From positions 39,915,433-39,979,432 of the forward strand of contig NC_092385.1 of assembly GCF_030028105.1 (NCBI RefSeq): a stretch of 64,000 nt of DNA, read 5' to 3'. Under the pieces are notes generated by a model. That model was not told the origin of the DNA and ran no database searches. It saw nothing but the letters and a program-made list of their open reading frames with translations. The DNA is from Mobula birostris. Its lineage: Eukaryota. How positions within the stretch are numbered: position 1 is the stretch's first letter; every line of letters begins with the position of its first letter. The translations under genes and the position numbers were made by a program. This document shows, piece by piece, positions 1-54,530 of the stretch.

Positions 1-784
1 TCTACTGATTGCTTGCATCTATCAAATACCACCTACAATTCTTTCTGCAATATTCACTGCTGCCATGGCATTTTTTTAATTAGTAGAGAATCTTTTTAAA
101 CCTTCATAGGTCAGTAGTAATTCATATCACCTTTTTTTCTAATATTATCAATACAATCACAGACCTTTACAGCAAGAAAAGGGTTCACTAAGTCTTTGAA
201 TGAACAGTTCTGCATCCTCTTTTTTTTTTGTCTGTAATCCTTAATTTCCCCAGCCAACTCTCTTTTAAAATTAGCAATGTATTTTACCTGCAAAGTACCA
301 GTTCTGGACAATCCTGAATGATAAAATTTCTTAACATCTCCCCCATTTACAGATCTTTTGGCAATTCATTTTTAAAATCAATTGCCTTTAGTTATTGATA
401 CATTTGCCAAAGGGAATAACATTCTTATCTTTTCCAATATTTTTATTAATTTACATATAAGAATACAGAGTACAGGAAAAATACATATATCAATACATTT
501 TACTAAATCGCATATAAAGACTCCTTACCTTATATTCATACAGGTTAATTAATTCGTAACATTGAAATATAGTAATTTTATTATATATATAAAAAAATCT
601 AACCCACTACCAAGACCAAAACTGATTAGTAAAGAAAAAAAGGAAAAAAAATTATTAGTCATCATCTGTGCTTTAACAATAAATCAAAGGTTTTGAAAAT
701 AATTCGGAAAAGGTCCCCACAATGTTTGAAAGTCTTGACTAGATTCAGAAATTGAGCATCAAATCTTCTCTAAATTTAAATATG

Positions 785-2229
785 GCTTTGTGCGTGGTAG
801 GTCATGTTTAACCAATCTGTTAGAGTTTTTCGAGGAGGTTACCAGGAAAGTGGATGAAGGGAAGGCAGTGGATGTTGTCTACATGGACTTAAGTAAGGCC
901 TTTGACAAGATCCCGCATGGGAGGTTAGTTAGGAAGATTCAGTCGCTGGGTATACATGGAGAGGTAGTAAATTGGATTAGACATTGGCTCAATGGAAGAA
1001 GCCAGAGAGTCATTGTGGAGGATTGCTTCTCTGAGTGGAGGCCTGTGACTAGTGGCGTGCCACAGGGATCAGTGCTGGGTCCATTGTTATTTGTTATTTA
1101 TATCAATGAACTGGATGATAATGTGATAAATTGGATCAGCAAATTTGCTGATGATACAAAGATTGAAGGTGTAGTGGACAGTGAGGAAGGTTTTCAAAAC
1201 TTGCGGAGGGATTTGGACCAGCTGGAAAAATGGGCTGAAAAATGGCAGATGGGGTTTTATACAGACAAGTGTGAGGCATTGCACGTTGGAAGGACAAACC
1301 AAGGTAGAACATACAAGGTAAATGTAGTGGACAGTGAGGAAGGTTTTCAAAACTTGCAGAGGGATTTGGACCAGCTGGAAAAATGGGCTGAAAAATGGCA
1401 GATGGAGTTTAATACAGACAAGTGTGAGGTATTGCACTTTGGAAGGACAAACCAAGGTAGAACATACAAGGTAAATGGTAGGGCACTGAGGAGTGCAGTA
1501 GAACAGAGGGATCTGAGAATACAGATACAAAATTCCCTAAAAGTGGCGCCACAGGTAGATAGGATTGTAAAGAGAGCTTTTGGTACATTGGCCTTTATAA
1601 ATCAAAGTATTGAGTATAAGAGTTGGAATGTTATGGTGAGGTTGTATAAGGCATTGGTGAGGCCAAATTTGGAGTATTGTGTACAGTTTTGGTTACCGAA
1701 TTACAGGAAAGACATTAATATGGTTGAAAGAGTGCAGAGAAGGTTTACAAGGATGTTGCTGGGACTTGAGAAACTGAGTTACAGAGAAAGGTTGAATAGG
1801 TTAAGACTTTATTCCCTGGAGCATAGAAGAATGAGGGGAGATTTGATAGAGGTATATAAAATTATGATGGGCATAGGTAGACCGAATGCAAGCAGGCTTT
1901 TTCCACTGAGGCTAGGGGAGAAAAAAACTAGAGGACATGGGTTAAGGGTGAAGGGGAAAAAGTTTAAAGGGACAATTAGGGGGGGCTTCTTCACACAGAG
2001 AGTGGTGGGAGTGTGGAGTGAGCTGCCAGATGAAGTGATAAATGCAGCCTCACTTTTAACATTTAAGAAAAACTTGGACAGGTACATGGATGAGAGGTGT
2101 ATGGAGGGATATGGTCCAGGTGCAGGTCAGTAGGACTAGGCAGAAAAATAGTTCAGCACAGCCAAGAAGGGCCAAGAGGCCTGTTTCTGTGCTGTAATGT
2201 TCTATGGTTTTATGCTCTATGTTTCTATG
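785..2229 (+). mobile_element. 5'-truncated CR1 LINE with an uninterrupted RT-to-C-terminus reading frame (790-2133)
   Basis: Motifs GRSCLTNL, DLSKAFD, GVPQGSVLGP, KFADD, RPNLEYCVQFW, TRGH. 3' (TCTATG)-type microsatellite tail. TATG shared at both junctions (781-784, 2226-2229). Confidence 0.97.
1171..1476 (+). repeat. 153-bp in-frame tandem duplication inside the CR1 RT
   Basis: GTAGTGGACAGTGAGGAAGG starts at 1171 and again at 1324. The 51-aa block VVDSEEGFQNL...GRTYKVN occurs twice. Confidence 0.95.
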
Positions 2230-3035: not shown

Positions 3036-4513
3036 AACATCAATAATTTCAGATATGCAGATGACATTGTGTTAATTGCAAGTACGGAGGAAGAACTACA
3101 AAACTTAATTGATATAATTGTTGAAGAAAGTGCAAAAATGGGTCTATCTATCAATTGCAAAAAGACAGAACGTATGGTGATATCCAAAAAAGAAGGAGAA
3201 TCCTATCTGCAGGCTGAGAATAAATGGGGAAGACATAAAACAAGTACAGAACTTTTGCTACTTAGGAAGCTGGGTGACATCAGATGGCAGGTGTGACTTG
3301 GACATCCAAAGAAGAGTAGGGATGGCAAAAGACACCTGCACGAGAATGAAGAGTATACTGACCAACACTAAACTAGGCATGACAAATCACCTCAGAGTAC
3401 TGAAATGTTATGTTTATCCAGTTATGTTATATGGCTCAGAATGTTGGACAATATCTAGTAACATAAGGAAATGAATTGTAGCAGCAGAGATGTGGTTTTT
3501 GAGGAGGATGCAAAGAATATCATGGATGAAACAAATATCTAACAAGGATGTCATGAACAGAACAAACACAAAAAGAGAAATAATGTATGAGATCATGAAA
3601 AGGCAATGTAACTTCATTAGACATGTGATTAGGAAAGAGGAGTTAGAATGCACTGTAATTTTAGATTATGAGGACACTCAGTCCTCGTTTATTGTCATTT
3701 AGAAATGCATACATTAAAAAAATGATACAATGTTCCTCCAGAAAGATATCAGAGAAAACCAGGACAAACCAAGACTAAAACTGACAATACCACATAATTA
3801 TAACATATAGTTACAACAGTGGAAAGCAATACCGTAATTTGATAAACAGCAGACCATGGGCACAGTAAAAAAAAAGTCTGAAGTCCCAATAGCCCCATCA
3901 TCTCATGCAGACGGTAGAAGGGAGAAATTCTCCCTGCCATGAACCTCCAAGCGCCGCAAACTTGCCGATGCATTGGAAGCACCCAACCGCAGCCGACTCT
4001 GAGTCCATCCAAAAATTTCAAGCCTCCGACCAGCCCTCCGACACCGAGCACCGAGTACCAACCTCTGCCGAGTGCTTTGACCCTGCCCCGGCTGCCACGC
4101 AACAAGCAAAGCCGAAGACTTAGGACCTTCCCCTCCGGAGATTCTGGATCACACAGTAGCAGCGGCAGCGAAGCAGGCATTTCAGAAGTTTCACCAGATG
4201 TTCCTCCGTACTCTCACGTCTGTCTCCATCAAATCAGGATTGTGCACGGCATCCTACTTGATAGATAACAGATATCGCCACCGGAGTGGCTGCTGCGAGC
4301 TGTGTCGCATGGCCATCTTCTCCTCCTGATGGTTCTTATGGGAAAGATTGAAGGGAAGAAAGCAAGAGGAAGACAAAGACAAATGATGATGGAGACAGCA
4401 GCCAAAAAACTGGAAATGAGTACCAATGAATTGATCCACTTGACCCAAAACAGGAGTGTGTGGGCCATGGCAGTCAAAGCTCAAACTGGGTATGGCACCT
4501 GATGATGATGATG
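3036..4513 (+). mobile_element. 5'-truncated RTE-clade LINE interrupted by a non-autonomous element (RTE pieces 3036-3660 and ~4337-4513)
   Basis: RYADD motif, GLSINCKKT, MLYGSECW, AAEMWFLRRM, GKIEGKKARGRQR. (TGA)n tail. 12-bp TSD ATCC(G/A)TTTTGAA at 3024-3035 and 4514-4525. Confidence 0.9.
3661..4336 (-). mobile_element. Non-autonomous LINE-derived retroposon (LINE-like 5' end, AATAAA, 3' stem-loop, short tail)
   Basis: Minus strand starts with GGAGAAGATGGC and ends AATAAAC-GAGGAC tgagt GTCCTC-ATAATCTAA. It interrupts the RTE frame TVI|MGKIEG. CpG-rich, no credible ORF. Confidence 0.7.
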
Positions 4514-5374
4514 ATCCATTTTGAATCTTAACACTTTGAATAGAACAGCAAAATGCACCAACTAATTAACATGGCTAAGGGCGATCAGTTTCTCCCTTAT
4601 TTGAAAAGAAGATTCGTAACGTGCTAATGCCGATAGAATATGCCCTCAAAAATGATGATAGGATGTAATACAAATTACTGTATTCAGTGCCTATGGAGTT
4701 AGCCATTGTCTTATCAGAAGGGAACAACAATATCTTTTAGATATAATTTATATAATATTTATAAAATTTACTCCCTTCAATTCCACTCTTCACCCCGCCC
4801 CCACCCCCACTGCCTACTGCGAGCAGAGTAACTCCTGGGCTGTTCTGAACATTGGTTCTCAGGTGGTCGCTTTTCCCATTTGTCTGTCTCACTGTCACGT
4901 AAAGTTCAGTTTGGGGCTTGTTCAGATGAAACAGGTGGAAGGCCACTAATTAATGTTCCATGGCACACCGTGGCTCAGCACTGAATCACGGCACTACTAT
5001 GTAGTTCAAAGTTATGCTCTTCACAAAGCACACTTTCATGAGAGTTGTTCACAATCTGTAAGAGAATTGTGCAGATTACCTGTGCCTGGAAATCGCAAAT
5101 AAAGCATCACCTCTACAGAGCCATGTGTGACAAATCAGAGTGGAAATCCTGACTCGAATTTTTAAAAATACTGCAGATAATGAACAGTGTAAGTAACTAT
5201 GAACAATGATGCTAGATTACTGTAAGATCAAATATTTTAAAAATGGGCTATACTTCTTTGAAAACAAAATCTCCACTATGTCATTTAAGTGGAAAAGTAA
5301 TAGTTAAATAGGAAAAACAGATTTAGTCAGAAAACCGTGAACACTTTTACTGTGATTTATCTTGTGGAAAATGC

Positions 5375-6352
5375 TGCTCAGGGTTTTAAGCTCAGCCAAC
5401 TCCATCACTGGCACTAGCTTCCCCTCCATCGAGGACATCTTCGAACGGTGATGATTTAGAATCAGAATCAGGTTTATTATCACCGGCAGGTGACGTGCAA
5501 TTTGTTAACTTAGCAGCAGCAGTTCAATGCAATACATAATCTAGCGGGGGGGGGGGGGGGGAATAAATAAATAAAATAAAACATAATAATAAATAAACAA
5601 GTAAATCAATTACGTATATTGAATATATTAAAAAATGTGCAAAAATAGAAATACTGTATATTTTAAAAAGTGTGGTAGCGTCCAAATCTTCAAAGTCCAT
5701 TTAAGAATTTGGACGGCAGAGGGGAAGAAGCTGTTCCTGAATCGCTGACTGTGTGCCTTCAGGATCTTGTACCTTCTACCTGATGGTAACAGTGAGCAAA
5801 AGGGCATGCCCTGGGTGCTGGAGGTCTTTAATAATGGACACTGCCTTTCTGAGACACTGCTCCCTGAAGACGTCCTGGGTACTTTGTAGGCTAGTGCTCA
5901 AGATGGAGCCGACTAAATTTACAACCCTTTGAAGCTTCTTTCTGTCCTGTGCAGTGGCCCCTCCATACCAGACAGTGATGCCGCCTGTCAGAATGCTCTC
6001 CACAGTACAACCATAGAAGTTTTTGAGAAGGCAAGAAGGCAGCATCCATCATTAAGGAACCTCACCATCCAGGACATGTCCTCTTCTCATTCCTATCAGC
6101 AGGGAGGAGATGCGGGAGCCTGACAACACAGATTCAACATTTTAGAAACTGCTTCTTCCCCTCCACCACCAGATTTCTGAATGGTCCATGAACCCGTGAG
6201 CACTACCTCACTATTTTTCACTGTTTGTGTGCTAATTATTTTTATGTATTTCTTAATATAAATTAGGGTAATTTTTTATGTATTGCCCAGTACTGCTGCA
6301 GCAAAACAACAAATTTCACGATTTCTGTCAGTGACAATAAACCTGATTCTGA
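5375..6352 (+). mobile_element. Rex1-related 3' fragment with a second, minus-strand Rex1-related element nested at ~5453-6025
   Basis: Host text ...CATCGAGGACATCTTC...GGTGATG | CAAGAAGGCAGCATCCATC is split. The insert encodes FYGCTVESILTGGITVWYG and has a (CTGATT)n tail at ~5455-5472. Confidence 0.8.
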
Positions 6353-7639
6353 TGCTGAAAAAGACAGATCTGCCCACTGGGTCTATGTAGTTTCATGGGG
6401 AGCAATCCCATCAGTCCTGTTACCCTCTCCTTATTTTCCCGAAACCCTGCAATTTACTCTCTCCGATCAAATACCCTTTGATTATTTACATTAATCTCAA
6501 TTAAGAAGTACTTTACAGTAACCAGTTAGTTTTTGGCAATATGAATGAAAACCCAGATCAGCAAAGGAAATTTAAAGAGGAGGCAGATATATTTGAAAAA
6601 ATTAGGGAACCGTGGAGTATGGGAACAGGCAGAGAAGTGGAGTTGAGCCTGGGGTTGTGTGGCTGTTGGTACTGACCAGAGAGTTATACGTTGGACAGTG
6701 CGGCACTTTGAGAATTAATGGGCAGGGGAGCCTTGCGGCAACGTGAGCACAGGCAAGTCCTGTGTTATTGATGGAAGGAACTCACCACATTTCTGCCCTT
6801 CCAGGCACCTGCTCCCCGTCTGCAGTTACCAACCACATAGCCAGGTCAGAATCCACAAAACCGGAGTTGAAACAAGCCCCCCCGCATCTTGGGGGAGTGC
6901 TGGAGAAGGATAATGTACTTTAGAGTGTGCAGGCTATTGGACCCAGCACACCACTGCCTTGGCTTGTGTTTACTTGGATCTCCTCCCGTGCCTTCTCCCC
7001 ACCCATGTTCACTGCAAATACCAAAGATACTCATCTCAACAACTCTTTGTGGTGCCGTGTTAAAGAAATTCCACAGAATTTCCTTCTGGATTTATCTGCA
7101 GCGCACTTATATTTTGGCTCTGACTCTGATCACTTGATCTTTCAAAACTGTATATATTCGTAAAGTTCTCAGTTATGCAAATATTCTGGTTTCCTGTTTA
7201 AAGAGAAAACTAGACTAACTTGTTCATGTTCCTGCTCTGTATAGTCTCTTAATTTTTGCATCAATCTTGTAAGTGCTCAAAGCCTTTTTTCCAATGCCTC
7301 TATTCCTTTTCCATAATATACACATTAGAACCATTGATATTATTCAAAAATTGATCTATCAAAAGCTCAGTTCAATCTGAGCAAATCTGCCTTTCAATGT
7401 TATTCTGATAAAAGTAACCCCAGTGCTGTGTTAACTAATCTAATGGGCCTGCTGACCAGCATGATAACTGTTGGTAACTGATGTACCTGTGTCCAGATCC
7501 TGTGTTCCCGATAACATGTAATCCCAATGAAACCCTGATCTATATTTGCAAATCACACATCCAATTTTCACATTCTAAGGTCTTCTTGAACACTGTCCCA
7601 TTTTGTATTAATAGCTTGAGTCGATTTCCTCAATTGCAG

Positions 7640-11610: not shown

Positions 11611-11627
11611 TTGGAAGTCTGACAGAC

Positions 11628-11848
11628 ATAAAAGTTGCTGGTGAACGCAGCAGGCCAGGCAACATCTCTAGGAAGAGGTGCAGTCGACGTTTCAGGCCGA
11701 GACCCTTCGTCAGGACACCTAGTCTTGACGAAGGGTCTCGGCCTGAAACGTCGACTGCACCTCTTCCTAGAGATGCTGCCTGGCCTGCTGCGTTCACCAG
11801 CAACTTTTATGTGTGTTGCTTGAATTTCCAGCACCTGCAGAGTTCCTG
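11628..11848. mobile_element. Palindromic Penelope-derived mini-element (inverted pLTR arms) with 17-bp TSD
   Basis: Arms ~11626-11716 and ~11722-11812 are near-perfect reverse complements around a 5-nt loop. TTGGAAGTCTGACAGAC is duplicated at 11611-11627 and 11849-11865. Confidence 0.9.
11681..11716 (-). ncRNA. Minimal type-I hammerhead ribozyme motif (intact core, short helix I)
   Basis: Minus strand: GTC-CTGACGA-AGG gtctcgg CCT-GAAAC-GTC-GAC. Confidence 0.65.
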
Positions 11849-11940
11849 TTGGAAGTCTGACAGACTTGATTTAAGGAAGATGAAGCAAAAACACAGGTAG
11901 CATGGTAGCGTAGCGGTTAGCACAATGCTTTACAGTACCA

Positions 11941-13354
11941 AAAACACAAAATACTCTGCAGATGCTGGGGTCAAAGCAACACTCACAACCCGCTGTTCCT
12001 TCGCTACATTGACGACTACATTGGTACTACTTCCTGCACCCATGCTGAGCTCGTGAATTTCATCGACTTTACTTCAAACTTCCACCCAGCCCTCAAATTC
12101 ACTTGCTCTATCTCGGACACTTCTCCCCCCTTTCTCGATCTCTTGGTCTCCATCTCTGAAGACAGATTTGTCCACTGATATCTTCTACAAGCCCACTGAT
12201 TCTCATAACTACCTCGACTATACCTCTTCCCACCCTGCCATATGCAAAACTGCCATTCCCTATTCCTAGTTCCTCCGTCTCCGCCGCATCTGCTCCCAGG
12301 ATGAGGCTTTCCGTTCCTGGACATCTCAAATGTCCTCTTTCTTTAAGGATCGTGGTTTCCCTTCTGCCGTCATCAATGATGCCCTCACCCGCATCTCCTC
12401 CATTTCCCGCACTTCAGCTCTCACCCCATCCTCCCGCCACCACAACAGGGACAGAGTTCCCCTTGTCCTCACCTACCACCCCACCAGCCTCCGGATCCAG
12501 CACATTATCCTCTGCATCTTCCGCCACCTTCGACAGGACCCCACCACTAAGTACATCTTTCCCTCTCTACCCCTCTCCGCCTTCCGCAGGGATCGGTTCC
12601 TCCCCACAGATCTCTCACCCGGCACTTATCCCTGTAAGCATAAGTGCTATACCTGTCCCTACACCTCCTCTCTTGCCACCATTCAGGGCCCCAAACAGTC
12701 CTTCCAGGTGAGGCAACACTTCACTTGTGAGTCTGTTGGGGTCATCTATTGCATCCGGTGCTCCCGGTGCGGCCTCCTCTACATCGGTGAAACCCGACGC
12801 AGATTGGGGGACCGCTTCGTCAAGCACCTCCGCTCCGTCCGCCACAACAGACAGGATCTCCCGGTTGCCACCCACTTCAACTCTGCTTCCCATTCGGATA
12901 TGTCCATACATGGCCTCCTCTACTGCCATGATGAGGCTAAACCCAGGTTGGAGGAGCAACACCTCATATACCGTCTAGGTAGTCTCCAGCCCCTTAGTAT
13001 GAACATAGAGTTCTCCAACTTCCAGGTAATTCCCTCCCCCTCCCTTCCTCTATCCCTATTTCACTCTGCCTCCTCCCCCAGCTGCCTATCACCTCCCTTA
13101 TGGTTCCATCTCCTTCTACTACCTATTGTGTTTTCCTCTATTCTTTCATCACCTTTCCTGCCTATGACTTCCCTGCTTCCCCTCCCTCACCCCTTTATCT
13201 TTCCCCTTACTGGTTTTTCACCTGGAACCTACCAGCCTTCTCCTTCCCACCCTTCCCCCACCTTCTTTATAGGGCCTCTGTCCCTTCCCTCTTCAGTCCT
13301 GATGAAGGGTTCCGGCCCGAAACGTTGACTGATCATTTCCACGGATGTGAGTAT
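11941..13354 (+). mobile_element. 5'-truncated Penelope-like element (Neptune-like): RT C-terminus, Cys linker, GIY-YIG endonuclease and pLTR; disrupted
   Basis: RYIDD at ~12002-12016, PFLD, YKPTD, linker CKHKCYTC, GVIYCIRCSRCGLLYIGETRRRLGDRF. Inverted pLTR piece at 11941-11995. 15-bp TSD TGCTTTACAG(T/C)ACCA at 11926-11940 and 13355-13369. Confidence 0.95.
13293..13332 (+). ncRNA. Minimal type-I hammerhead ribozyme in the Penelope pLTR
   Basis: TCAGTC-CTGATGA-A-GGG ttccgg CCC-GAAAC-GTT-GACTGA: 6-bp helix I, intact core, GUU cleavage triplet, palindromic AACGTT in place of helix III. Confidence 0.8.
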
Positions 13355-14048
13355 TGCTTTACAGCACCAGTGACCCAGGTTCAATTCCCACTATCGTCTG
13401 TAAGGAGTTTGCACGTCCTCCCCTTGATCGAAGACGTACTGTTTGCTAGGTTAACTGGTCATACTAAATTGTCCTAAATTGTCCATCTCAGATGGACGCT
13501 GGCAACACTCAAATAGGTCAGGCTATAACTGTGGGAAGAGAAACAGAGTTAATGTTTCTGGTTAGGAGACAAAAATCAGCTTGTAAAGCTGCAGTAAGGG
13601 TGATGTCCCTGATTGGCTAAAGCCAGGATGACCATGAGGTCAAACTAGTCAGTGAGTAAATGAGAGAAGTCAGCAGCTGAATCTTGAAGGAATATGAAGT
13701 GTGAAATGCAGAGCAGGAGGACAAACACAGCAGAATGGGCTAGATACATCCTCAACCTACAGAGAAAAAACAAAATAAGCTGATCTAATATCAGAGGAGG
13801 ATGGCCTTATATCAAAATTGGCTAACCTCACTATATAAATTGCTGGATTCAATATTGAGTCTTGAGAGCTGCAACGTGTGACAGTGAGGATAGAGTGGAA
13901 ACATTCGGCCTCCAATACTACCCAGACACCCAAAATAAGTGCGCGGAAGATCACTTATGGTCTCTCTAGGCATAGTACAGTCTTTCAGTAACAACACCAA
14001 GTCTCCCCCACCACCTGCCCCCCTCCGTCCCTGCACAAAACATACTTG

Positions 14049-15900: not shown

Positions 15901-15974
15901 ACCTGACTGCAAAGCCAAAGCTGCTTCCCTGACTAATGGCACACGATTGATACCATTAACTCCTGGTCATAGCG

Positions 15975-17155
15975 AGTCGATAAGCTTCAAGAACTGGGCC
16001 TCAGCACCTCCTTGTGCAACTGGATCCTCGATTTCCTCACTTGCAGACCTCAGTCGGTTCAGATTGGCAACATCATCTTCTCCACAATCACCATCAGCAC
16101 AGGTACACCACAAGACTGTGTGCTTAGCCCCCTGCTCTACTGGCTTTACACTTATGACTGTGAGGGTAAGCATAGCTCCAATGCCATATTTAAGTTTTCT
16201 TATGACACCACTGTCGTTGGCCAAATCAAAGGTGGTGACGGATCTGCATATAGAAAGGAAATTGAAAATCTGGCTGAGTGGTGCCACAACAACCACCTCG
16301 CACTCAGTGTCAGCAAGATCAAGCAGCTGATTATTGACTTCAGGAGGAAGAAAATGAGGGTCCATGGGTCAGTCCTTACTGGGGGATCAGAGGTGGAGAG
16401 GGTCAGCAACTTTAAACTCCTCAGTGTTATCATTTCAGAGGATATATTCTGAGTCCAGCATGCAAGTGCCATTACAAAGAAAGCACAGCATTGTCCCTAC
16501 TGAAGGTTAGTGAAGATTCGGCATGTCATCTAAAACTTCGACAAACATCTAAGCAGTGGAAAGTATACCGATTGCTTGCATCATGGCCTGGTGCACCTTG
16601 AACAAAAAAAAACAACAAAAAGTCATGGATACAGCCCAGTCTATCTCGGGTAAAGCCCTCTCCACCACCGAACACAGCTTCAAGGAACACTCTCATAGAA
16701 AAGCAGCTGATTATCATCAAGGACTCCCAGCATCCAGGCCATGCTCTCTTCTTGCTGCTGCCATTGGGAAAGAGGTACAGGAGCCCCAAGAGCCACGCCA
16801 CCAGGTTTCAGAATAGTTATTATCCCTCAACCATCAGGCTCTTGAACCAGAAGGGATAACTTCACTCACCCCAAAACTGAACTGTTCCCACAACCTATGG
16901 ACTTACTTTCAAAGGCTCTTCATATCACATTCTCAATAGTTATTGCTTATTTATTATTACTTCTTAAATCTTTGTATTTACAGTTTGTTGTCTTTTGCAC
17001 ACATGTTGTTTGCCTGTTTTGTGTGCGGGTTTTCATTGATTCTATTGTGTTTCTTAGTATTTACTGTGAATGCCCATTAGAAAATAAATCCCAGCGTTGT
17101 ATATGGTGACATATATTTATTTTGATAAGAATATACATTTTCTTTGAACTTTGAT
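15975..17155 (+). mobile_element. Rex1/Babar LINE, 5'-truncated and decayed
   Basis: [38 protein letters not shown] (from FADD), IIDFRR. TTTGAACTTTG tail. Confidence 0.92.
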
Positions 17156-20668: not shown

Positions 20669-23008
20669 TTGGAACAGGGGAGGAAACCAGAGCTCCCGGA
20701 GGAAACCCACACAGTCACGGGAAGTATGTGCAAACTCCTTACAGACAACAGCGGGATTTGAGGTCTGATCAGTGACTTCTGGTGTTGTAAAACTTTGTGC
20801 CACCCTCAGGTGCAATCTAACTCTCGGCTTCCAAGCCCCTCCCTGCTGCCTTACCTGCTGCTTACTTCCAGCATTTATTGTTTCTTCCTCAGTACTTTGC
20901 TGGCTTTTCATGTTTGAATCTTGTGACCAAGAGTTTGGGAAGAACTACTTGTAGTACTGTTGAGTCACTAGTGATTAATTCCAAATTAGAAATAAACTAT
21001 GTCTCTCAGAATCAACAGCACGAGAAACCTACAAATTAATTGTTCTACAATTACCCTGAAGCCTTTGGTAAACTGTGCAGCCAAGCGTGAGGAAAGCTCC
21101 AAACTCCACCTTTAATGTGCTATTTGACCAAAAATCTAGGTCAAGTGTTTAGGAGCAAAGTACTATACACTTGCAACAGGGCAATGTTTGATGTGCCAAT
21201 TATTTTCCTTGTCTAATCCTATTATTTCCTTCCTCAAATACCAACACCCAGGCACAATGCATCGTTTGCTGATTCAAAGCATATGTTCATATGTCAGTGC
21301 TGTGCTATTTAGCCATGTAGTAATGGATTGCATCATCACCTTCCTTCATTTGAACCTCTCTAACAGACCCACTGGTCACAATCAGAAATAAAAACGAAGA
21401 ACCATCTTCTCCTCCCTAGCTGAGGAACGCTGAGCCAATTATAGGCGTTTAATTGTTGCTCTGCCTGACAGAAGCTAACAGCACAGACGAGGATTGCTCT
21501 GTTGCTCAATGATCTGAATGCCTGATCTACTTACCGAACAATCTTCCTGAACCACTGGGGAAGCTTTCATCAAAGATTAACCAAACAGCGTGACATATAA
21601 TGAAGATGCATTGCCTTTCCAGGATGCCTCCACTGCATTCTTTTAAACAATGCCACTCTGACCTGTCAGAATTAAACAGATGAGCTGCAATTGTGCATTT
21701 AATATAATGCACCTTCCTGCAATACAATGGCTGTGCTTATTCATTTCAAGTCAACTTTTTCACTTTGTCATATTCATAAGGACAGTTCTTATCATATCCA
21801 CAAACAATTTTATAACAATTGTTTAAAAACAATTTATGTTTTGATATGGTTCCAATATTAAATTTAAAGAAATCTGCTGTTGGCTTTCTATTGTTGGCTT
21901 TTTTTTTGCTCTTTTAAAAAAATTGGTAATGACATAATATTTGGCATTTTCTCAACAGTGCTCCTCACATCTGGCAGGTAGTTTGTGCAATGGTTTACAA
22001 TCTGGAACTGGTTTACTGGACAGGAGGTACAGGTATCAGGTTCAAAGTCAAAGTCTAGTTTATTGACATATGCTCAAGTACATGTATGCACAAGTACAAC
22101 AAAAAACTTACTTGTATAACAGGCATACAGCAACAGATAAGCAGCATTCACAAGAACAAATATAACTTATACAAGAAAGAATACAATTGGAACAAAATGG
22201 TACATTACAAAGCAAAGTAAGAATACTAGAATGCCTTCCTTGTGATTCCTGCCTCTACAGATTTTTATAAATTCAGTCAGAGTAGATATGTAAATGATAC
22301 AACTAATCTTAACTTCTCCAAGTAAGCAACTTGGCCAGGGCTCTTGCTTTACAGACTATAAAATGGGCACAAGGAACATACGAAAGTTAAGATATGATGA
22401 AATTACAGAAAAGGTAATGTAAAGAGACCAGCGGGGAAAAAAATCCTTTTTTAAGCCCTTTTCTTATATTTATGTTAGCTTATGGGAGATAGGCATTGCT
22501 AGCAAGGCCAGTATTCATTGTCTTGAACACCCTTGAGAAGGCTGTGATGAACCACCATGTTACAGTCACGTTGAAGAAAAAATTTACAAAAAATATATTG
22601 AAATTTATTTCAAAATATGAAGGCTATTGTATTTCAGAATCTGCAAAGCTGAATTGTAGAAGAAGCCATGTGAAATACATTGCACAACTGTTGTCCAAAT
22701 CCTAATAAATATGTTTTCTATTTTAACAGAAAGCTATTTTTGAATATTATTTGGTATTTCCAGTGAGGTGCTTACATCTGAATAAAACAAAGGCTAAAAC
22801 TTCTGGTTTAGGATAATGAAATTGATCACTCCTGCCTGAGGTCCTTCTTTCAAAAGCTTTATAATGATAGAACCGTACAGCAGAGAGACAAGTCAGTTCT
22901 CATCAGTGCTAACTCTAATACAGTACTTATCTAAGCTCTTTAGGCTGGATTCATTTGCCCTATCTTATTCCTGGCCTCACTAGCACAATGCACAGAGAGC
23001 AGTCTCAA

Positions 23009-32584: not shown

Positions 32585-32965
32585 TATATGTACTTCGATA
32601 ATAAATTTACTTTGAACTTTTTCAATTTCCTCAGTACTAACCAGAAGAAGAAAAAAAAAATGCTGAAGGAACTCAGAGGGTCAGGTTGTATCTGCAAAGG
32701 GAAATGGACAGTCAATGTGTCAGGTGGCAACCTTTCACCTGCACTGGGTGGTCCAAAAGATTACAGCCTACAAAATCCCAGGCAATATAGCAAATTGGAT
32801 TCAAGGTTTTCGTTGTATGCTTTTGTAATTGGAAACCTCTGATTAGTAGTGTACCACAGTGTTGAGATCTTCACAGTTTTACATACACCGTAATAATTTC
32901 TATATGAATGTGGGAGGTATGATTTGCAGATGAATGAAAATTAGTGGTGATGTTGATATTGAGGA

Positions 32966-34158
32966 ATACATACAAAATGCTGTAGGAAATCAGCAAGTCA
33001 AGCAACATCTATAGAGGAGATTAAACAGTTGACATTTTGGCCAAGACTCATTTCCTTCCATCACTATCAACACTGCTCTCACATGCATTTCCCATGCATC
33101 TGCTCTTACCCCATACTCCCATCCTCAAAACAGAGATGGGTTCCTCTTGTCCTTATGTTCCACCCACGAGCCTCCGGACCCCGCACACCACTCTCTGTAA
33201 CTTCTGGCATCTCTAATGGGATCCTACTACTAAGCATGTCTTTCCCTCCCCCTCCCCTCTCTGTTTTCCATAGGGATCACTCTCTCTGTGACCTCCTTGT
33301 CCATTCATCCACCTCCACTTATCTCCCTCCTGATACTTATCCATGCATGTGGTACAAGTGTTACACCTGCCCCTGCACCATTTAGGGCCCCTGACAGCCC
33401 TTCCAGGTAAGGCAATACTTCACCTACGAATTTGGTGAAGGCACTTATTGTATATGGTGCTCCTAGTAGGGCCTCTTCTACAATGTGAGATCTGACGTAG
33501 ATCAAGGGACCACTTTGTCAAGCCCCTTTGCTCTGTCCAGCACAAAAGGGAAGATCTCATGGTCACCCATTTCAATTCGACTTCCCATTCCTATGTGCCT
33601 GCCCAGGCCCTTCACTACTGTCACGATGAGGCCACACTCAGGTTGAAGAAGCAACGCCTCAAATTCCGTCCAGGTACCTTCCAATCTAATGCATGAACAT
33701 CAACTTTTCCAACTTCCAGTAATCTCTCCCCTTTCCCTCTTTTTCTATTCCCCATTGTGGCTACTCCCTCTTCTCCTCACCTGTCTATTACTTCCATCTG
33801 GTTTCCCTCCTCCTTCCCTTTCTTCAATAATCCTCCATCTTTTCCTATCAGATTCCTTCTTCTTCAGATGTTTACCTCTTCCACTTATTCCCTCACAACT
33901 ATTTACTTCATTCTTCCTCTCCCACCCACCCACCTTCCCCCTCATCTGGTCTTATCTATCACCTGCCAGATTGAACTTCTTCCCCTCCGCTTCTTATTCA
34001 GATTTCTGCCCCTTTCCTTTCTAATCCTGATGTAGTCCATCAGTTTTTGGCCTGAAACATTAACTGTTTATTCCCCCTCGTAGATGCTTCTTGACTTGCT
34101 GAGTTCCTCAACAATTTGTTTGTGTTGCTTGAGATTTCCAGCATCTGCAGAAGTTTTT
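32966..34158 (+). mobile_element. Decayed Penelope-like element with inverted 5' pLTR, nested in an old CR1 (~32750-34890)
   Basis: VPLVLMFHP, TYPCMWYKCYTCP, GIY-YIG remnants, CT-rich tail. Inverted pLTR piece at ~32966-33050. Confidence 0.85.
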
Positions 34159-49449: not shown

Positions 49450-52400
49450 CTCCATAACTAAGATAAGGTTGGCTGCTTGTGACTAGTGGTGATCTGCAAA
49501 GGTCAGTGTTGGGTCTACTACTTTTCACATTATATGTTAATGATCTGGATGATAGAATTTGTGGCCAACTTTGCAGTGGCAGGCAATGTTGAGGAAGCAC
49601 AGAGTCTGCATGAGGACACGGACAGATTAGCAGCACAGGCACAGAAGTGGCAGATAGAATACAATGTAGGGAAGAGTATGGTCATGCACTTTGGTAGAAG
49701 AAAGAAAGGCATAGACCATATTCTAAATGGGAAGCAAAATCAGAAATAGGAGGTGCAAAGGGGCTTGGGAGTTACAGCCAGAGTTCCCTAAAGGGTAATT
49801 TGCAGGTTGAGTCAGTAGTACAGAAGGCAAGTCAAGGGAAGTGCCTTGCGAGAAAAGTGCGAGTCTTTGGCTCAGGAGTCTTCGGCGAGGAGGCTGAGAG
49901 TGGAGACTACACCACAGTTGGAGAGGGTGAGAAGTGGTGAGGAAATGACCGCCAGGCTGATTCAGTGTGCTGCTTGCATGATGTGGGAGGTCAGGGACAC
50001 TGATGGTGCTTCTGGCTCCTACACTTGTGGAAAATGTGTCCAGATTCAGCTTCTGAAGGACCGTGTTGCAGCACTAGAGAGGCAACTGGATGACGTTAGG
50101 TTCCTCTGGGAGAACGAGAGTTTTCTGGATAGGACCAACAGTGAGGTCGTTACACCGAGGATACCGGAAGACAGAAGGGGGACAACGATGAGCAAGGAAA
50201 GGATGCTTGAAGTACAGGAGACCCCGGGAGATGTGCGGCTCGTAAACAGGTTCTCCCTCTTGGAAGCTGTCGGGACAGAAGATGATGCCAGCCTGAGAGG
50301 CGGACAGGTCTGCGAGTCAACAATTGGCGGTGAAGCAAAGCCGAGGAGACAGATGTAAGGCAGAGCCGTGGTAGTAGGGGACTCCATAGTGAGAGGTACA
50401 GAAAGGGGTTTCTGTGGCAACAGGTGAGATTTAAGGATGGTGTGTTGCCTCCCTGGTGCCAGGATCCAGGATGTCATGGACCGATTGCAGGGAATCCTCA
50501 AGAGTGAAGGTGAACATTCAGAAGTGGTGGTGCATGTCGACACAAATGACGTGGGGAAGAAGAGGAAAGATATTCTACAGCGTGACTTCAGAGAACTTGG
50601 AAGAAGGCTGAAAAGCAGGACTTCCAGGGTTGTTATCTCCCGTTTGCTTCCAGTTCCCCGTGCTGGAGTGGTCAAGAACAGGGAGATAATGGATCTGAAT
50701 GTGTGGCTGAGGATCTGGTGCAGCAAGCAAGGATTTACATTCTTGGACCACTGGGGTATGTTTCGGGGTAAGGATGAATCGTACAAAAGGGACGGGTTGC
50801 ACCTTAACAAAGCGGGGCACCAGCATTCTGGCAGCCAGGTTTGCCTCTGCAACACGGGTGTGTTTAAACTAAGTAGTGGGGGAGGAGAGGATGAACTGGA
50901 AACATAAGTGGAGATAAAGGGAAAGTGAGAATAAGAAAAGTTAAGAAAGACAGCAGAATCGACAGAGCAGAAAGCTCAAGAAGGGATCGTACAGTACGGC
51001 CAAGTGAATTGGGAATTGATATGGGAGGTGAGGGGAGTAATGAATTAAAAATATTATATATGAATGCACGGACTATAAGAAATAAAGTGGATGAGCTTGA
51101 GGCACAGTTGGAAATTGGTAAGTATGATGTTGTGGGAATAACAGAGACATGGCTTCAAGTGGACAGGGCCTGGGAAATGAATATTCAAGGTATACGTCCT
51201 ATCGAAAGGACAGACTGATGGGCAGAGGGGGTGGGGTGGCTCTGTTGGTGAGGAATGACACTCAGTCCCTTGTGAGGGGAGACATACAATCAGTATGGAT
51301 AGAACTGAGAAATTCTAAGGGTAGAAAGACCCTAATGGGAGTTATCTACAGGCCCCCAATCAGTAGTCTGGATGTAGGGTGTAAGTTGAATCAAGAGTTA
51401 AAATTGGCATGTCGCAAAGGTAATGCTACAGTTGTTATGGGGGACTTCAACATGCGGGTAGACTGGAGGAATCGGGTCGGTACTGGACCCCAAGAAAGGG
51501 AGTTTGTGGAGTCCCTCCGAGATGGATTCTTAGAACAGCTTGTACTGGAGCCTACCAGGGAGAACGCAATTCTAGATTTAGTGTTGCGCAATGAACCAGA
51601 TTCGATCAGGGACCTCGAGGTAAAGGAGTCATTAGGAGGTAGTGACCATAATATGATAAGTTTTAATCTATAATTTGAGAGGGAGAAGGGAAACTTGGAA
51701 GTGTCAGTATTACAGTTGAACAAAGGGAACTATGGTGCTATGAGGGAGGAGCTGGCCAAAGTTCAATGGAACAATACCCTGGCAGGGATGACAGTGGAAC
51801 AACAATGGCAAGTGTTTCTGGGAATAATGCGGAAGGTGCAGTATCAGTTCATTCCAAAGAGGAAGAAAGATCCTAAGGGGAGTAAGGGGAGGCCGTGGCT
51901 GACAAGGGAAGTAATGGACAGTATAAAAATAAAAGAGAAGAAGTATAACATAGCAAAGACGAGTGGGAAGCTGGAGGATTGGGAAACCTTTAAAGATCAA
52001 CAGAAGGTAACTAACAAGGCAATAAGCGGAGAAAAAATGAGGTACGAAGGTAAACTAGCCAAGAATATAAAGGAGGATAGTAAAAGCTTCTTTAGGTATG
52101 TGAAAAGGAAAAAAATAGTTAAGACCAAAATTGGGCCCTTGAAGACAGAAGCCGGTGAATTTATTATGGGGAACAAGAAAATGGCAGGCGAGTTGAGCAG
52201 GTACTTTGGATCTGTCTTAACTAGGGAAGACACAAGCAATCTCCCAGACAGAATAGTGGCCAAAGGAGCTAGGGTAATGGATGAACTGAAGGAAATTTAT
52301 ATTAGGCAGGAAATGGTGTTGGATAGGCTGTTGGGTCTGAAGGCTGATAAGTCCCCAGGACCTGATGGTCTGCATCCCAGGGTACTTAAGGAGGTGGCCT

Positions 52401-54530
52401 TAGAAATCATGGACACATTGGTAATCATTTTCCAATGTTCTATAGATTCAGGATCAGTTCCTGTGGATTGGAGGGTGGCTAATGTTGTCCCTCTCTTCAA
52501 GAAGGAAAGAAGAGAGAAAACGGAATTATAGACCAGTTAGCCTGACGTCGGTGGTGGGAAAGATGCTGGAGTCAATTATAAAAGATGAAATTACGACACA
52601 TCTGGATAGCAGTAACAGGATCGGTCCAAGTCAGCATGGATTTATGAAGGGGAAATCGTGCTCGACTAATCTTCTGGAATTTTTTGAGGATGTAACTATG
52701 AAAATGGACAAGGGAGACAGTGGATGTAGTGTACCTGGACTTTCAGAAAGCCTTTGAAAAAGTCCCACATAGGAGATTAGTGGGCAAAATTAGGGCACAT
52801 GGTATTGGGGGCAGACTACTGACATGGATTGAAAATTGGCTGGCTGACAGAAAATAAAGAGTAGCGATTAACGGGTCCCTTTCAAAATGGCAGGCGGTGA
52901 CCAGTGGGGTACCGCAGGGTTCAGTGCTGGGACCGCAGCTGTTTACAATATATATTAATGATTTAGATGAGGGAATTAAAAGTAACATGAGCAAATTTGC
53001 CGATGACACAAAGCTGGGTGGCAGTGTGAAATGTGAGGAGGATGTTATGAGAATGCAGGGTGACTTGGACAGGTTGGGTGAGTGGGCAGATGCAGTTTAA
53101 TGTGGATAAATGTGAGGTTATCCACTTTGGTGGTAAGAACAGGGAGGCAGATTATTATCTAAATGGAGTCAAGTTAGGAAAAGGGGAAGCACAAGGAGAT
53201 GTAGGTGTTCTTGTACATCAGTCACTGAAAGTAAGCATGCAAGTACAGCAGGCAGTGAAGAAAGCTAATGGCATGCTGGCCTTCATAACAAGGGGAATTG
53301 AGTATAAGAGCAAAGAAGCCTTTCTGCAGCTGTACAGGGCCCTGGTGAGACCACACCTGGAGTACCGTGTGCAGTTTTGGTCTCCAAATTTGAGGAAGGA
53401 CATTCTTGCTATCGAGGGAGTGCCGCGTAGGTTCACAAGGTTAATTCCCGGGATGACGGGACTGTCATATGTCGAAAGATTGGAACGACTGGGCTTGTAT
53501 ACTCTGGAATTTAGAAGGCTGAGAGAGGATCTTATTGAAACATATAATATTATTAAGGGATTGGACACGTTGGAGGCAGGAAGAATGTTCCCACTGATGG
53601 GTGAGTCCAGAACCAGAGGCCACAGTTTAAGAATAAGGGGTAGGCCATTTAGAACGGAGTTGAGGAAAAACTTTTTCACCCAGAGAGTGGTGGATATATG
53701 GAATGCTCTGCCCCAGAAGGCTGAGGAGGCCAAGTCTCTGGATGCTTTCAAGAAAGAAATGGATAGAGCTCTTAAAGATGGCGGAATGAAAGGTTATGGG
53801 GTTAAGGCAGGAACTGGATACTGACTGTGGATGATCAGCCATGATCACAGTGAAAGGCGGTGCTGGCTCGAAGGGCCGAATGGCCTACTCCTGCACCTAC
53901 TGTCTATTGCCTATGTTAACCACCATTTCAAGAGGATTAGAATATAGAAACAAGAATGTAACATATTCCCTTGTTCTCAAGAAATACCACAAAGCTGATG
54001 AAATAAAGAAGGCTTCCACCACTAGAGTCAAGTCTAGTGGTCAGACCACATTGGGAATATTGTGATGAGTTTTGGGCCCTGTATCTACAAAAGGATCTGC
54101 TGGCATTAGAGACAGTCCAGAGGAGGTTCATGAGAATGATCCTGGTAATGAGAGGTTAACATGTGAGGAGTTCTTGGCCTGTATTTACTGGAGTTTAGAA
54201 GATTAAGGGAGGTTCTCATTGAAACCTATTGAATATTGAAAGGCCTAGATAGAGTGGAAGTGGAGAAGACATTTCCAATTGTGGGAGAGTCTAGGACCTG
54301 AGGACAGAGCCTTAGAATACAAAATGTCTCTTTAGAACAGAGATAAGGAGGAATTTCTTTAGTGTGTTGAAACTATGCGATTCATTGCCACAGACAGCAA
54401 TGGAAGTCAGGTAATTCGGTATATTTAAATCAGAGGTCGATACGTTCTGATTAGTAAGAGCAACAAGAGTTACGACAACAATGGGGTTGAGAGGCCAATG
54501 GTCCAATTCTGCTCTAATGTTTTATGGTCT
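49450..54530 (+). mobile_element. Older CR1 (pieces ~49450-49830 and ~53913-54530) hosting a full-length CR1
   Basis: KWQIEYNVGKSMVMHFGR lies left of the insert. The text resumes with ISRGLEYRNK...RPHWEYC on the right and ends in a (TTATGGT) tail. Confidence 0.8.
49831..53912 (+). mobile_element. Essentially full-length CR1 LINE (ORF1 zinc finger/leucine zipper and SGNH esterase; ORF2 APE and RT), inactivated
   Basis: ORF1 from ATG 49945: CAAC...CGKC, leucine heptads, VVGDSIVR, DGLHLN. ORF2: YMNAR, GITETW, MGDFN, GSDHN, SPGPDG, NYRPVSLTS, GVPQGSVLGP, KFADD. (CTATTG) tail. Several stops and frameshifts. Confidence 0.97.

What the first reader, a model, noticed from the sequence alone, without database searches (positions are those of the whole stretch)
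13293..13332. Intact minimal hammerhead ribozyme in a Penelope pLTR, with about ten relatives in this window
Seen: helix I TCAGTC/GACTGA, core CUGAUGA, short GGG/CCC helix II after an extra A, then GAAAC and a GUU triplet. Helix III is reduced to the palindrome AACGUU. Related motifs lie at ~11681(-), 11721, 19580, 24305, 28390, 34025, 34980(-), 39330(-), 39377, 41525 and 44637. Established: minimal type-I hammerheads occur in PLE pLTRs and are proposed to cleave as dimers through a palindromic helix III. Inference: this genome holds a very large dispersed population of potential self-cleaving motifs that could cut host transcripts or pair in trans.
Basis: partly seen in the sequence, partly recalled or inferred. 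Interest (0 to 1): 0.7.

Follow-up and report, generated by a model that had tools for sequence, protein, structure and literature searches.

The report
Penelope hammerheads spread mostly uncut
This is a real, known kind of self-cutting RNA motif at the end of a broken Penelope-type jumping gene, with at least 42,000 sequence-intact copies in this genome, but the copies decay like ordinary DNA and their insertion ends favour the start of the motif rather than its predicted cut site, so it is likely locked or weak and copied mostly uncut.

Summary
The motif at 13293-13332 is real. It is a minimal type-I hammerhead in the end repeat (pLTR) of a broken, 5'-truncated Neptune-type Penelope-like insertion with a 15-bp target duplication. 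All 11 relatives exist, but only 2 of them keep an intact core and helices. Genome-wide, 42,125 copies match an intact pattern (reversed control 0). This is a known kind (PMC4209133). The host-cutting inference is not supported. After insertion the catalytic bases decay like flanks. The monomer is predicted to fold into an inactive rod in which the core pairs with the cleavage strand. Lineages with A6C or U11.1 still spread. Insertion 5' ends pile up at the first bases of helix I, about 6-fold above the predicted cut site, and the cut site is no higher than a control 4 nt away. The copied RNA is therefore likely uncut and likely starts at the ribozyme's foot. This scan already noted the foot hotspot on other DNA (e1-8022686, e1-8157733); the controlled cut-site count is added here. 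The motif is far better conserved between families than its flanks, so source elements do keep it. No cleavage or raw-RNA test was possible.

The parts
11926..11940 (+). Left copy of the 15-bp target-site duplication, inside a tRNA-type SINE-like host repeat (SINE label recalled)
   Evidence: 14/15 identical to 13355-13369
11941..11996 (-). Short inverted pLTR end that carries the long ('tailed') 3' end
   Evidence: its reverse complement reads as the family-A tail to its long end; inverted pLTR with one-sided tail described in PMC8557442, PMC3846280
11997..13030 (+). 5'-truncated, broken PLE ORF: RT YIDD motif, thumb, C-x3-C-x2-C linker, GIY-YIG endonuclease with CCHH; frameshifts and an in-frame stop
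   Evidence: translation; PF01541 E=2e-4 (22.0 bits, cut-off 22.6); 87-93% identical to other family-A copies
13031..13292 (+). Pyrimidine-rich 3' UTR part of the pLTR
   Evidence: 156/305 identical between families A and B
13293..13332 (+). Minimal type-I hammerhead: helix I 13293-98/13327-32, core 13299-305, extra A 13306, helix II 13307-10/13315-18, GAAA 13319-22, palindrome ACGU 13322-25, predicted cut after 13326
13295..13296 (+). The A and G at which short insertions of these families most often begin (likely RNA 5' end); this copy itself runs on upstream
13333..13360 (+). Downstream pLTR with a 33-nt internal deletion near 13346, ending at the short (tail-less) end; last bases shared with the target duplication
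   Evidence: alignment to L002
13355..13369 (+). Right copy of the target-site duplication
11622..11851 (.). Separate head-to-head family-B insertion: 11713(-) passes the descriptor (helix I 3 bp, U11.1); 11721(+) has C3U
41523..41627 (+). Older-family copy with an intact core and GUU, weak helix II; the only other sense-strand descriptor hit in the window

Best explanation
The motif is the minimal hammerhead of a dead, 5'-truncated Neptune-type Penelope-like insertion, and the genome's tens of thousands of copies are likely inert by-products of an element that likely copies an uncut RNA beginning at the ribozyme's first bases. Shown: the element, the target duplication, the copy number, near-neutral decay of the core after insertion, much stronger conservation of the 37-nt block than its flanks between families, two 3' end clusters about 35 nt apart, a 5'-end hotspot at the A/G of AGTCC, and no excess at the predicted cut site over a nearby control. 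Inferred: (1) transcription starts at the A of AGUCC, so the hammerhead is the 5' end of the element's RNA; (2) reverse transcription starts 60-100 nt downstream of the cut site, at one of two tail sites, and reads through the scissile bond, giving ribozyme-plus-tail stubs, fold-backs and longer copies; (3) the lone RNA folds as a rod in which G5-A6-N7-G8 pairs with C15.2-G16.2-U16.1-N17, which would block cleavage until a partner copy and probably the element's protein refold it; (4) selection acts on source elements only, and any cleavage is a conditional step, not the step that makes the template.
For: Element. Copy number: 11,873, 42,125, controls 0. Block conservation between one family-A and one family-B copy: 35/37, against 154/200 for the ORF end, 156/305 for the UTR, 57/82 for the tail. 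Per-copy decay. 5' ends of tail-anchored copies: 17 of 69 (A) and 23 of 54 (B) short copies start within -1..+6 nt of C3, against 3 of 69 and 0 of 54 at the cut site (57 of 126 and 55 of 109 ran on past 100 nt). Genome-wide, family B: 2,437 and 2,271 matches break at the G and A of the foot (27/30 and 28/30 true junctions) out of 30,862, about 2.4% per visible letter; cut site 865 (26/50 true) out of 61,386, 0.37%; control 4 nt downstream 867 (15/30), 0.35%. Sharp upstream edge: 724 at the next base, about what chance extension gives. Rod fold: 4.0 kcal/mol below the open form in source-type copies, 0.6 in the focal copy; active dimer -23.1 against -26.0 for two monomers and -31.1 for the best dimer. 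Weakening variants that spread: A6C 1,001 vs 3,210 matches (A6C slow in PMC3088659), U11.1 in 47 of 61 family-B copies. In vitro precedent: uncut RNA is the main substrate, two internal start sites, protein-assisted cleavage (PMC11167929).
Against: No RNA end was observed: only contigs of guessed-RNA runs were available. Energies are nearest-neighbour values on 40-nt fragments without tertiary or Mg2+ terms. In family A the core is somewhat better kept than flanks (1.5% vs 2.9%, p=0.07), and G8A was 1 of 60 in one sample but 9 of 100 in another (hand tally; 13 for G12A, 20 for the loop-closing G). The cut site is above its immediate neighbours (5/20 of 297; 0/20 of 771; 6/30 of 500; 12/30 of 432), though 12 of its 26 junctions share 3 or more bases with the inverted arm. 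An extra 5' G expected from a cap is unclear: 32 of 100 in B (hand tally; about 30 expected), 10 of 19 in A. Family B has a better initiator match 4 nt upstream that is little used. Family A peaks at the G, not the A. About half of all copies run on upstream of the foot. Position 17 is only U or C in source lineages and never G, as cleavage requires. In D. virilis the start lies 46 bp upstream of an intron that ends at helix I (PMC2377424, PMC4209133), not at the foot.
Confidence: 0.7

Rival explanations
1. The dispersed intact copies are active in host cells and cut host transcripts, pairing in cis or in trans through ACGU and helix I.
For: 42,125 intact-pattern copies; 28 of 60 family-A and 25 of 61 family-B long copies are intact; all families share AGUC/GACU and ACGU, so mixed dimers can be drawn; the focal copy has the weakest lock and a 6-bp helix I; retrozymes are modestly depleted in Xenopus introns (10.64898/2026.07.22.740005, passages; no strand test seen).
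Against: The active dimer is 3-10 kcal/mol above two monomers in every pair tried (15 of 15); published minimal motifs are inactive alone and slow as dimers (PMC4209133); cores decay near the neutral rate. Neutral decay does not exclude harm, which would show as strand bias, and that was not tested.
Confidence: 0.1
2. The ribozyme cuts the tandem transcript to unit length, the ends are joined into a circle or bridged by a template jump, and reverse transcription then reads across the restored site (model of PMC4209133). The absence of ends at the cut site would be expected.
For: The block, including N17 = U or C, is kept across families; a small number of junctions do lie at the cut site, 7 of 50 classed as direct.
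Against: A circle has no end at the foot of helix I, where ends pile up. Direct junctions at the control site are as common (3 of 30). A6C and U11.1 lineages spread. Ribozyme mutants do not affect insertion in vitro in Anolis (PMC11167929).
Confidence: 0.12
3. The foot hotspot is not a transcription start but a splice acceptor or a structural stop: a pyrimidine tract and AG precede the core, and the new cDNA could fold into the complementary rod and fall off.
For: Pyrimidine tract plus CAG/TAG in all families, a branch-like TACTAAC in some B copies and a donor-like GTAATT in A; the D. virilis intron ends at helix I (PMC4209133).
Against: Ends include the G or AG that splicing would remove; the donor is absent at the same place in B and the branch-like word varies; 1 of 54 B ends is at the branch position. 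The rod model predicts a peak one base further out in family A (longer helix I); A peaks one base further in (770, 410, 250 at +3, +4, +5).
Confidence: 0.08

Closest known systems
[quoted passage not shown]
   Same: Intact core, extra nucleotide between 9 and 10.1, G10.1-C11.1 in the focal copy, no helix III with palindromic 15.2-16.2, place in the pLTR, mostly solo truncated copies.
   Different: 42,125 intact-pattern copies against about 4,000 (coelacanth) and 9,000 (Xenopus) reported there, with different search rules; one very uniform clade rather than many variable families; the commonest subfamily has U11.1; short helix II.
PAc, Poseidon element of Anolis carolinensis (Frangieh et al. 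2024, PMC11167929)
   Same: Two 3' end clusters about 35 nt apart downstream of the ribozyme; copies span the cut site; no sign of ends at the cut site.
   Different: Neptune-type linker here; no ATG in the core of the source-type copies (ACG); evidence here is from insertion ends, not biochemistry; a 5' hotspot at helix I is not described in the parts read.
Neptune clade of endonuclease-bearing PLEs (Craig et al. 2021, PMC8557442)
   Same: RT then CX2-5CxxC linker then GIY-YIG with CCHH; inverted 5' pLTR; one-sided 30-40-bp tail.
   Different: No RT tree was built, so Nematis is not formally excluded; insertion is in a SINE-like repeat with a clear target duplication rather than in (TA)n.
Non-LTR retrozymes (10.64898/2026.07.22.740005)
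   Same: PLE pLTR-derived hammerhead units in vertebrate genomes.
   Different: Retrozymes are head-to-tail tandem units; the focal copy is joined to a PLE ORF, and its relatives are mostly solo or head-to-head.

Membership tests
Minimal type-I hammerhead (min-HHR) | Core CUGANGA, GAAA and NUH in order, closed by helix I | tested here: met
   0 hits in 20 window shuffles
Minimal type-I hammerhead (min-HHR) | Extra nucleotide 9/10.1 and G10.1-C11.1 pair | tested here: met
   focal copy A13306, G13307-C13318; the main family-B subfamily has G-U instead
Minimal type-I hammerhead (min-HHR) | Palindromic helix III allowing a dimer | tested here: met
   ACGU; nested active dimer can be drawn, but it is not the lowest-energy form
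Minimal type-I hammerhead (min-HHR) | Compensatory base changes in helices across families | tested here: inconclusive
   only one-sided changes seen between family majorities (C-G to U-G in helix I, G-C to G-U in helix II); the families are too close
Minimal type-I hammerhead (min-HHR) | Site-specific self-cleavage | not testable with these tools
   needs an assay; no raw reads were available
EN+ Penelope-like element | RT followed by GIY-YIG endonuclease with CCHH | tested here: met
   (PF01541 just under its cut-off in this decayed copy; motifs read directly)
EN+ Penelope-like element | pLTR, inverted 5' arm, one-sided 30-40-bp tail, target duplication | tested here: met
   60+63 of 126 (A) and 59+50 of 109 (B) 3' ends in two clusters; 15-bp duplication
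Neptune clade | CX2-5CxxC linker before the GIY-YIG motif | tested here: met
   C-x3-C-x2-C in the focal translation; definition from PMC8557442
Neptune clade | RT phylogenetic placement | not tested
   no reference PLE RTs were fetched
Non-LTR retrozyme | Non-coding head-to-tail tandem units, each with a hammerhead | tested here: not met
   focal copy is single and joined to an ORF remnant; most short copies are solo or inverted

The most novel reading that the evidence does not exclude
The PLE hammerhead here is a self-locking 5' cap module. It begins exactly at the element's transcription start, and the two youngest, most successful families carry C7, which makes the core pair perfectly with its own cleavage strand, whereas older families carry U7. 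That lock lets a vertebrate genome hold over 40,000 intact ribozymes, and only the element's protein, or a partner copy, opens it. Insertion ends then map the start site and show that retrotransposition uses the uncut RNA.
Probability: 0.25. Interest if true: 0.6.

Novelty: new member of a known kind. Interest (0 to 1): 0.3.

Why it matters
What the PLE hammerhead does is an open question (PMC8557442, PMC11167929). The motif itself is ordinary. The value is in the population: tens of thousands of dated insertions give single-base counts of where copying stops. They agree with the in vitro result that uncut RNA is the template and point to a defined RNA start at the ribozyme's foot. Natural variants (C7/U7, C17/U17, U11.1, A6C) form a ready panel to test whether successful elements carry weaker ribozymes.

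Tried and rejected
Rfam scan of the window: no hammerhead family hit. Cut-site spike as a genomic trace of cleavage: first looked real against the two neighbouring bases, rejected when a G-starting control 4 nt away gave the same count. Protection of catalytic Gs: suggested by 1 of 60 G8A, not upheld (hand tally of the 100 listed) or in 95 old copies. GUU as CpG decay of the focal copy: rejected, U17 is a source-level variant (30 of 60, partner G to A 2 of 60). cDNA-hairpin stop: rejected on the family-A profile. Cap-derived extra G: inconclusive. RNA evidence: no RNA holder listed on record; four runs laid twice were contigs only, no pile of ends, and no GT..AG joint from the donor-like site to the foot among the 15 of 198 and 15 of 21 joints shown; no evidence either way. 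Host gene: 25 of 94 long open frames scanned against Pfam gave only LINE-type domains, so genic context is unknown. Intron strand test: not possible without annotation. A full-length tandem source element was not found; the longest ORF was 793 codons. ARAGORN found no tRNA gene. Lunse et al. 2017 is not held; only its title was seen. Look-ups of earlier notes by place and by sequence gave nothing.

Full report
Observation. Helix I has 6 pairs, the core is CUGAUGA, an extra A follows, helix II has three G-C pairs and a U-G pair round UCCG, then GAAAC and GUU; the predicted cut falls after 13326. A strict descriptor (full core, palindromic 15.2-16.2, both helices of 3 or more pairs) finds 3 hits in the window and none in 20 shuffles; in 1.14 Mb of fetched DNA it finds 110, all of this one clade, and none in 3 shuffles. 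Only 2 of those 11 pass the descriptor. Rfam has no matching family.

The element. The motif ends a 1.4-kb insertion bounded by a 15-bp target duplication at 11926-11940 and 13355-13369. Inside lie a short inverted pLTR end with the long tail, a broken ORF remnant (YIDD, thumb, C-x3-C-x2-C linker, GIY-YIG with CCHH), a pyrimidine-rich UTR, the hammerhead, and a tail-less end with a 33-nt deletion. By the domain definitions in PMC8557442 (passages) this is a Neptune-type PLE; no tree was built. That the host is a cartilaginous fish is my recollection of this repeat and comes from no call.

Population. The genome has 4.0 Gb. An exact pattern that keeps the whole core, three helix-I pairs, helix II and ACGU has 42,125 matches, control 0; with C11.1 required, 11,873. 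Two young families (A, the focal one; B, larger) and an older group were resolved. Their downstream 36-37-mers have 4,793 and 52,707 exact matches. PMC4209133 (parts 1-2 of 4 read) reports about 4,000 and 9,000 motifs in coelacanth and Xenopus with other rules.

Conservation. Between one A and one B copy the 37-nt block is 35/37 identical, the ORF end 154/200, the UTR 156/305, the tail 57/82. Source elements therefore keep it. After insertion it is not clearly kept. In tail-anchored copies that span the region, non-CpG core positions differ at 8/540 against 67/2340 in flanks (A, p=0.07) and 5/549 against 34/2440 (B, p=0.53); polymorphic and CpG columns were left out of this count. In 95 old copies G12 is A in 37 and the loop-closing G is A in 36. 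One sample hinted at protection of G8 (1 of 60); the 100 listed hits gave 9, with 13 for G12 and 20 for the loop-closing G (hand tally). Variants that spread from sources: U17 (30 of 60 A copies, so the focal GUU is inherited), U11.1 (47 of 61 B copies), and A6C (1,001 against 3,210 matches). A natural A6C hammerhead is slow (PMC3088659, passages). Between families I saw only one-sided changes in the helices, so covariation gives little support.

Folding. The lowest-energy monomer is a rod in which G5-A6-N7-G8 pairs with C15.2-G16.2-U16.1-N17. With C7 and C17, the source form of both young families, this is 4.0 kcal/mol below the open form; in the focal copy 0.6. Old copies have U7 (65 of 95, C in 11). 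The active dimer lies above two monomers in all 15 pairs tried, by 2.9 kcal/mol for the focal homodimer. These are nearest-neighbour values on 40-nt pieces. They fit published results: no monomer and low dimer cleavage (PMC4209133), and no cleavage without the element's protein in Anolis (PMC11167929, parts 1-2 of 4 read).

Insertion ends. Copies were picked by a tail word downstream of the cut site, so their 5' extent is unbiased; both arms of fold-backs were counted, and a few cross-matching old copies were not removed. 3' ends fall in two clusters about 35 nt apart, like the two start sites of reverse transcription in PMC11167929. Of 126 A and 109 B copies, 57 and 55 run on more than 100 nt upstream of the core. 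Of the rest, 17 of 69 and 23 of 54 start within -1..+6 nt of C3; 3 of 69 and 0 of 54 start at the cut site. Genome-wide counts with a wrong base placed before each position, corrected by inspecting loci: in B, 2,437 at the G and 2,271 at the A of AGTCC (27/30 and 28/30 true junctions, one locus of another family dropped by eye), 724 one base further (20/25), of 30,862. At the cut site 865 (26/50) of 61,386. Per visible letter that is 2.4% against 0.37%. The cut site stands above its neighbours (5/20 of 297, 0/20 of 771, 6/30 of 500, 12/30 of 432), but 12 of its 26 junctions share 3 or more bases with the inverted arm, and a control 4 nt downstream gives 15/30 of 867, or 0.35%. Family A gives 770, 410 and 250 at the G, the A and the next base (22/25, 19/25, 12/25 by script, a few of these from other families).

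Mechanism. Most copies span the scissile bond, and short ones stop at the foot of helix I with a sharp upstream edge. The simplest reading is an RNA that starts at the A of AGUCC, is copied from one of two internal tail sites, and is uncut when copied. The start site is inferred; a cap-derived G is unclear (32 of 100 in B, 10 of 19 in A), and the D. virilis start lies elsewhere (PMC2377424, passages). A splice acceptor and a cDNA hairpin stop fit worse. Cleavage may still serve source elements at another stage, which would explain why the block is kept.

Novelty. The motif, its place and the dimer idea are in print. Searches for Penelope + ribozyme + shark (2 papers, neither on this) and Penelope-like/elasmobranch/Neptune found no description of this family; some searches were the other searches. 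One cartilaginous fish was among the genomes with retrozymes in 10.64898/2026.07.22.740005 (part 1 of 5 and passages). Supplements of PMC4209133 and of that preprint, and Lunse et al. 2017 (title only), were not seen and may list this family. Also read as passages: PMC6765202, PMC6155905, PMC3846280; PMC5287114 as a search listing only. I saw the foot hotspot before the look-up, but this scan had already noted it on other genomes. Verdict: a new member of a known kind; interest 0.3.

Noticed in passing
window 11896-11940 and 13355-13430: The PLE inserted into a tRNA-type SINE-like repeat (A-box- and B-box-like words on either side; label recalled, ARAGORN finds no tRNA); a related piece lies at 20715-20761(-).
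   Followed up: partly
window 32700-32746 (-): Old pLTR relative whose core reads CAGGTGA...CACCTG and GACA in place of GAAA, so it could form a plain hairpin; 3 similar copies clustered. May be a lineage that lost the ribozyme, or decay.
   Followed up: no
L531-L536 and 1,001 genome matches; window 24306 may belong: Older subfamily with A6C in the catalytic core that still spread.
   Followed up: partly
L036 / L457 (G000:C1:2642100-2642260), L218, L232, L524-L525: Short head-to-tail repeats of the hammerhead unit (about 39-73 nt) that start at the foot; candidates for natural cis dimers or retrozyme seeds.
   Followed up: no
L016:1545-1597: The family-A tail folds into a long hairpin (z -4.1 for the 106-nt piece); the same piece of family B does not stand out (z 0.0).
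   Followed up: no
family A, position C15.2-G16.2: G to A is more common than C to T at this palindromic CpG (20 vs 7 of 100, hand tally; 9 vs 4 and 8 vs 1) but not in old copies (26 vs 29 of 95). Unexplained.
   Followed up: partly
L152 (-) 4380-7000: Near-full family-B ORF (793 codons) with a duplicated proline/serine-rich N-terminal stretch; 5' end lost.
   Followed up: no
window 739-2133, 15973-16452, 51128-53824: LINE-type reverse transcriptase and endonuclease remnants; a second PLE body at 33086-33816, 69% alike.
   Followed up: no
G000:C5:12147412-12734584 and C5:194865575-195559847: Clusters of near-identical family-A junction copies, likely segmental or tandem duplications of host DNA.
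   Followed up: no
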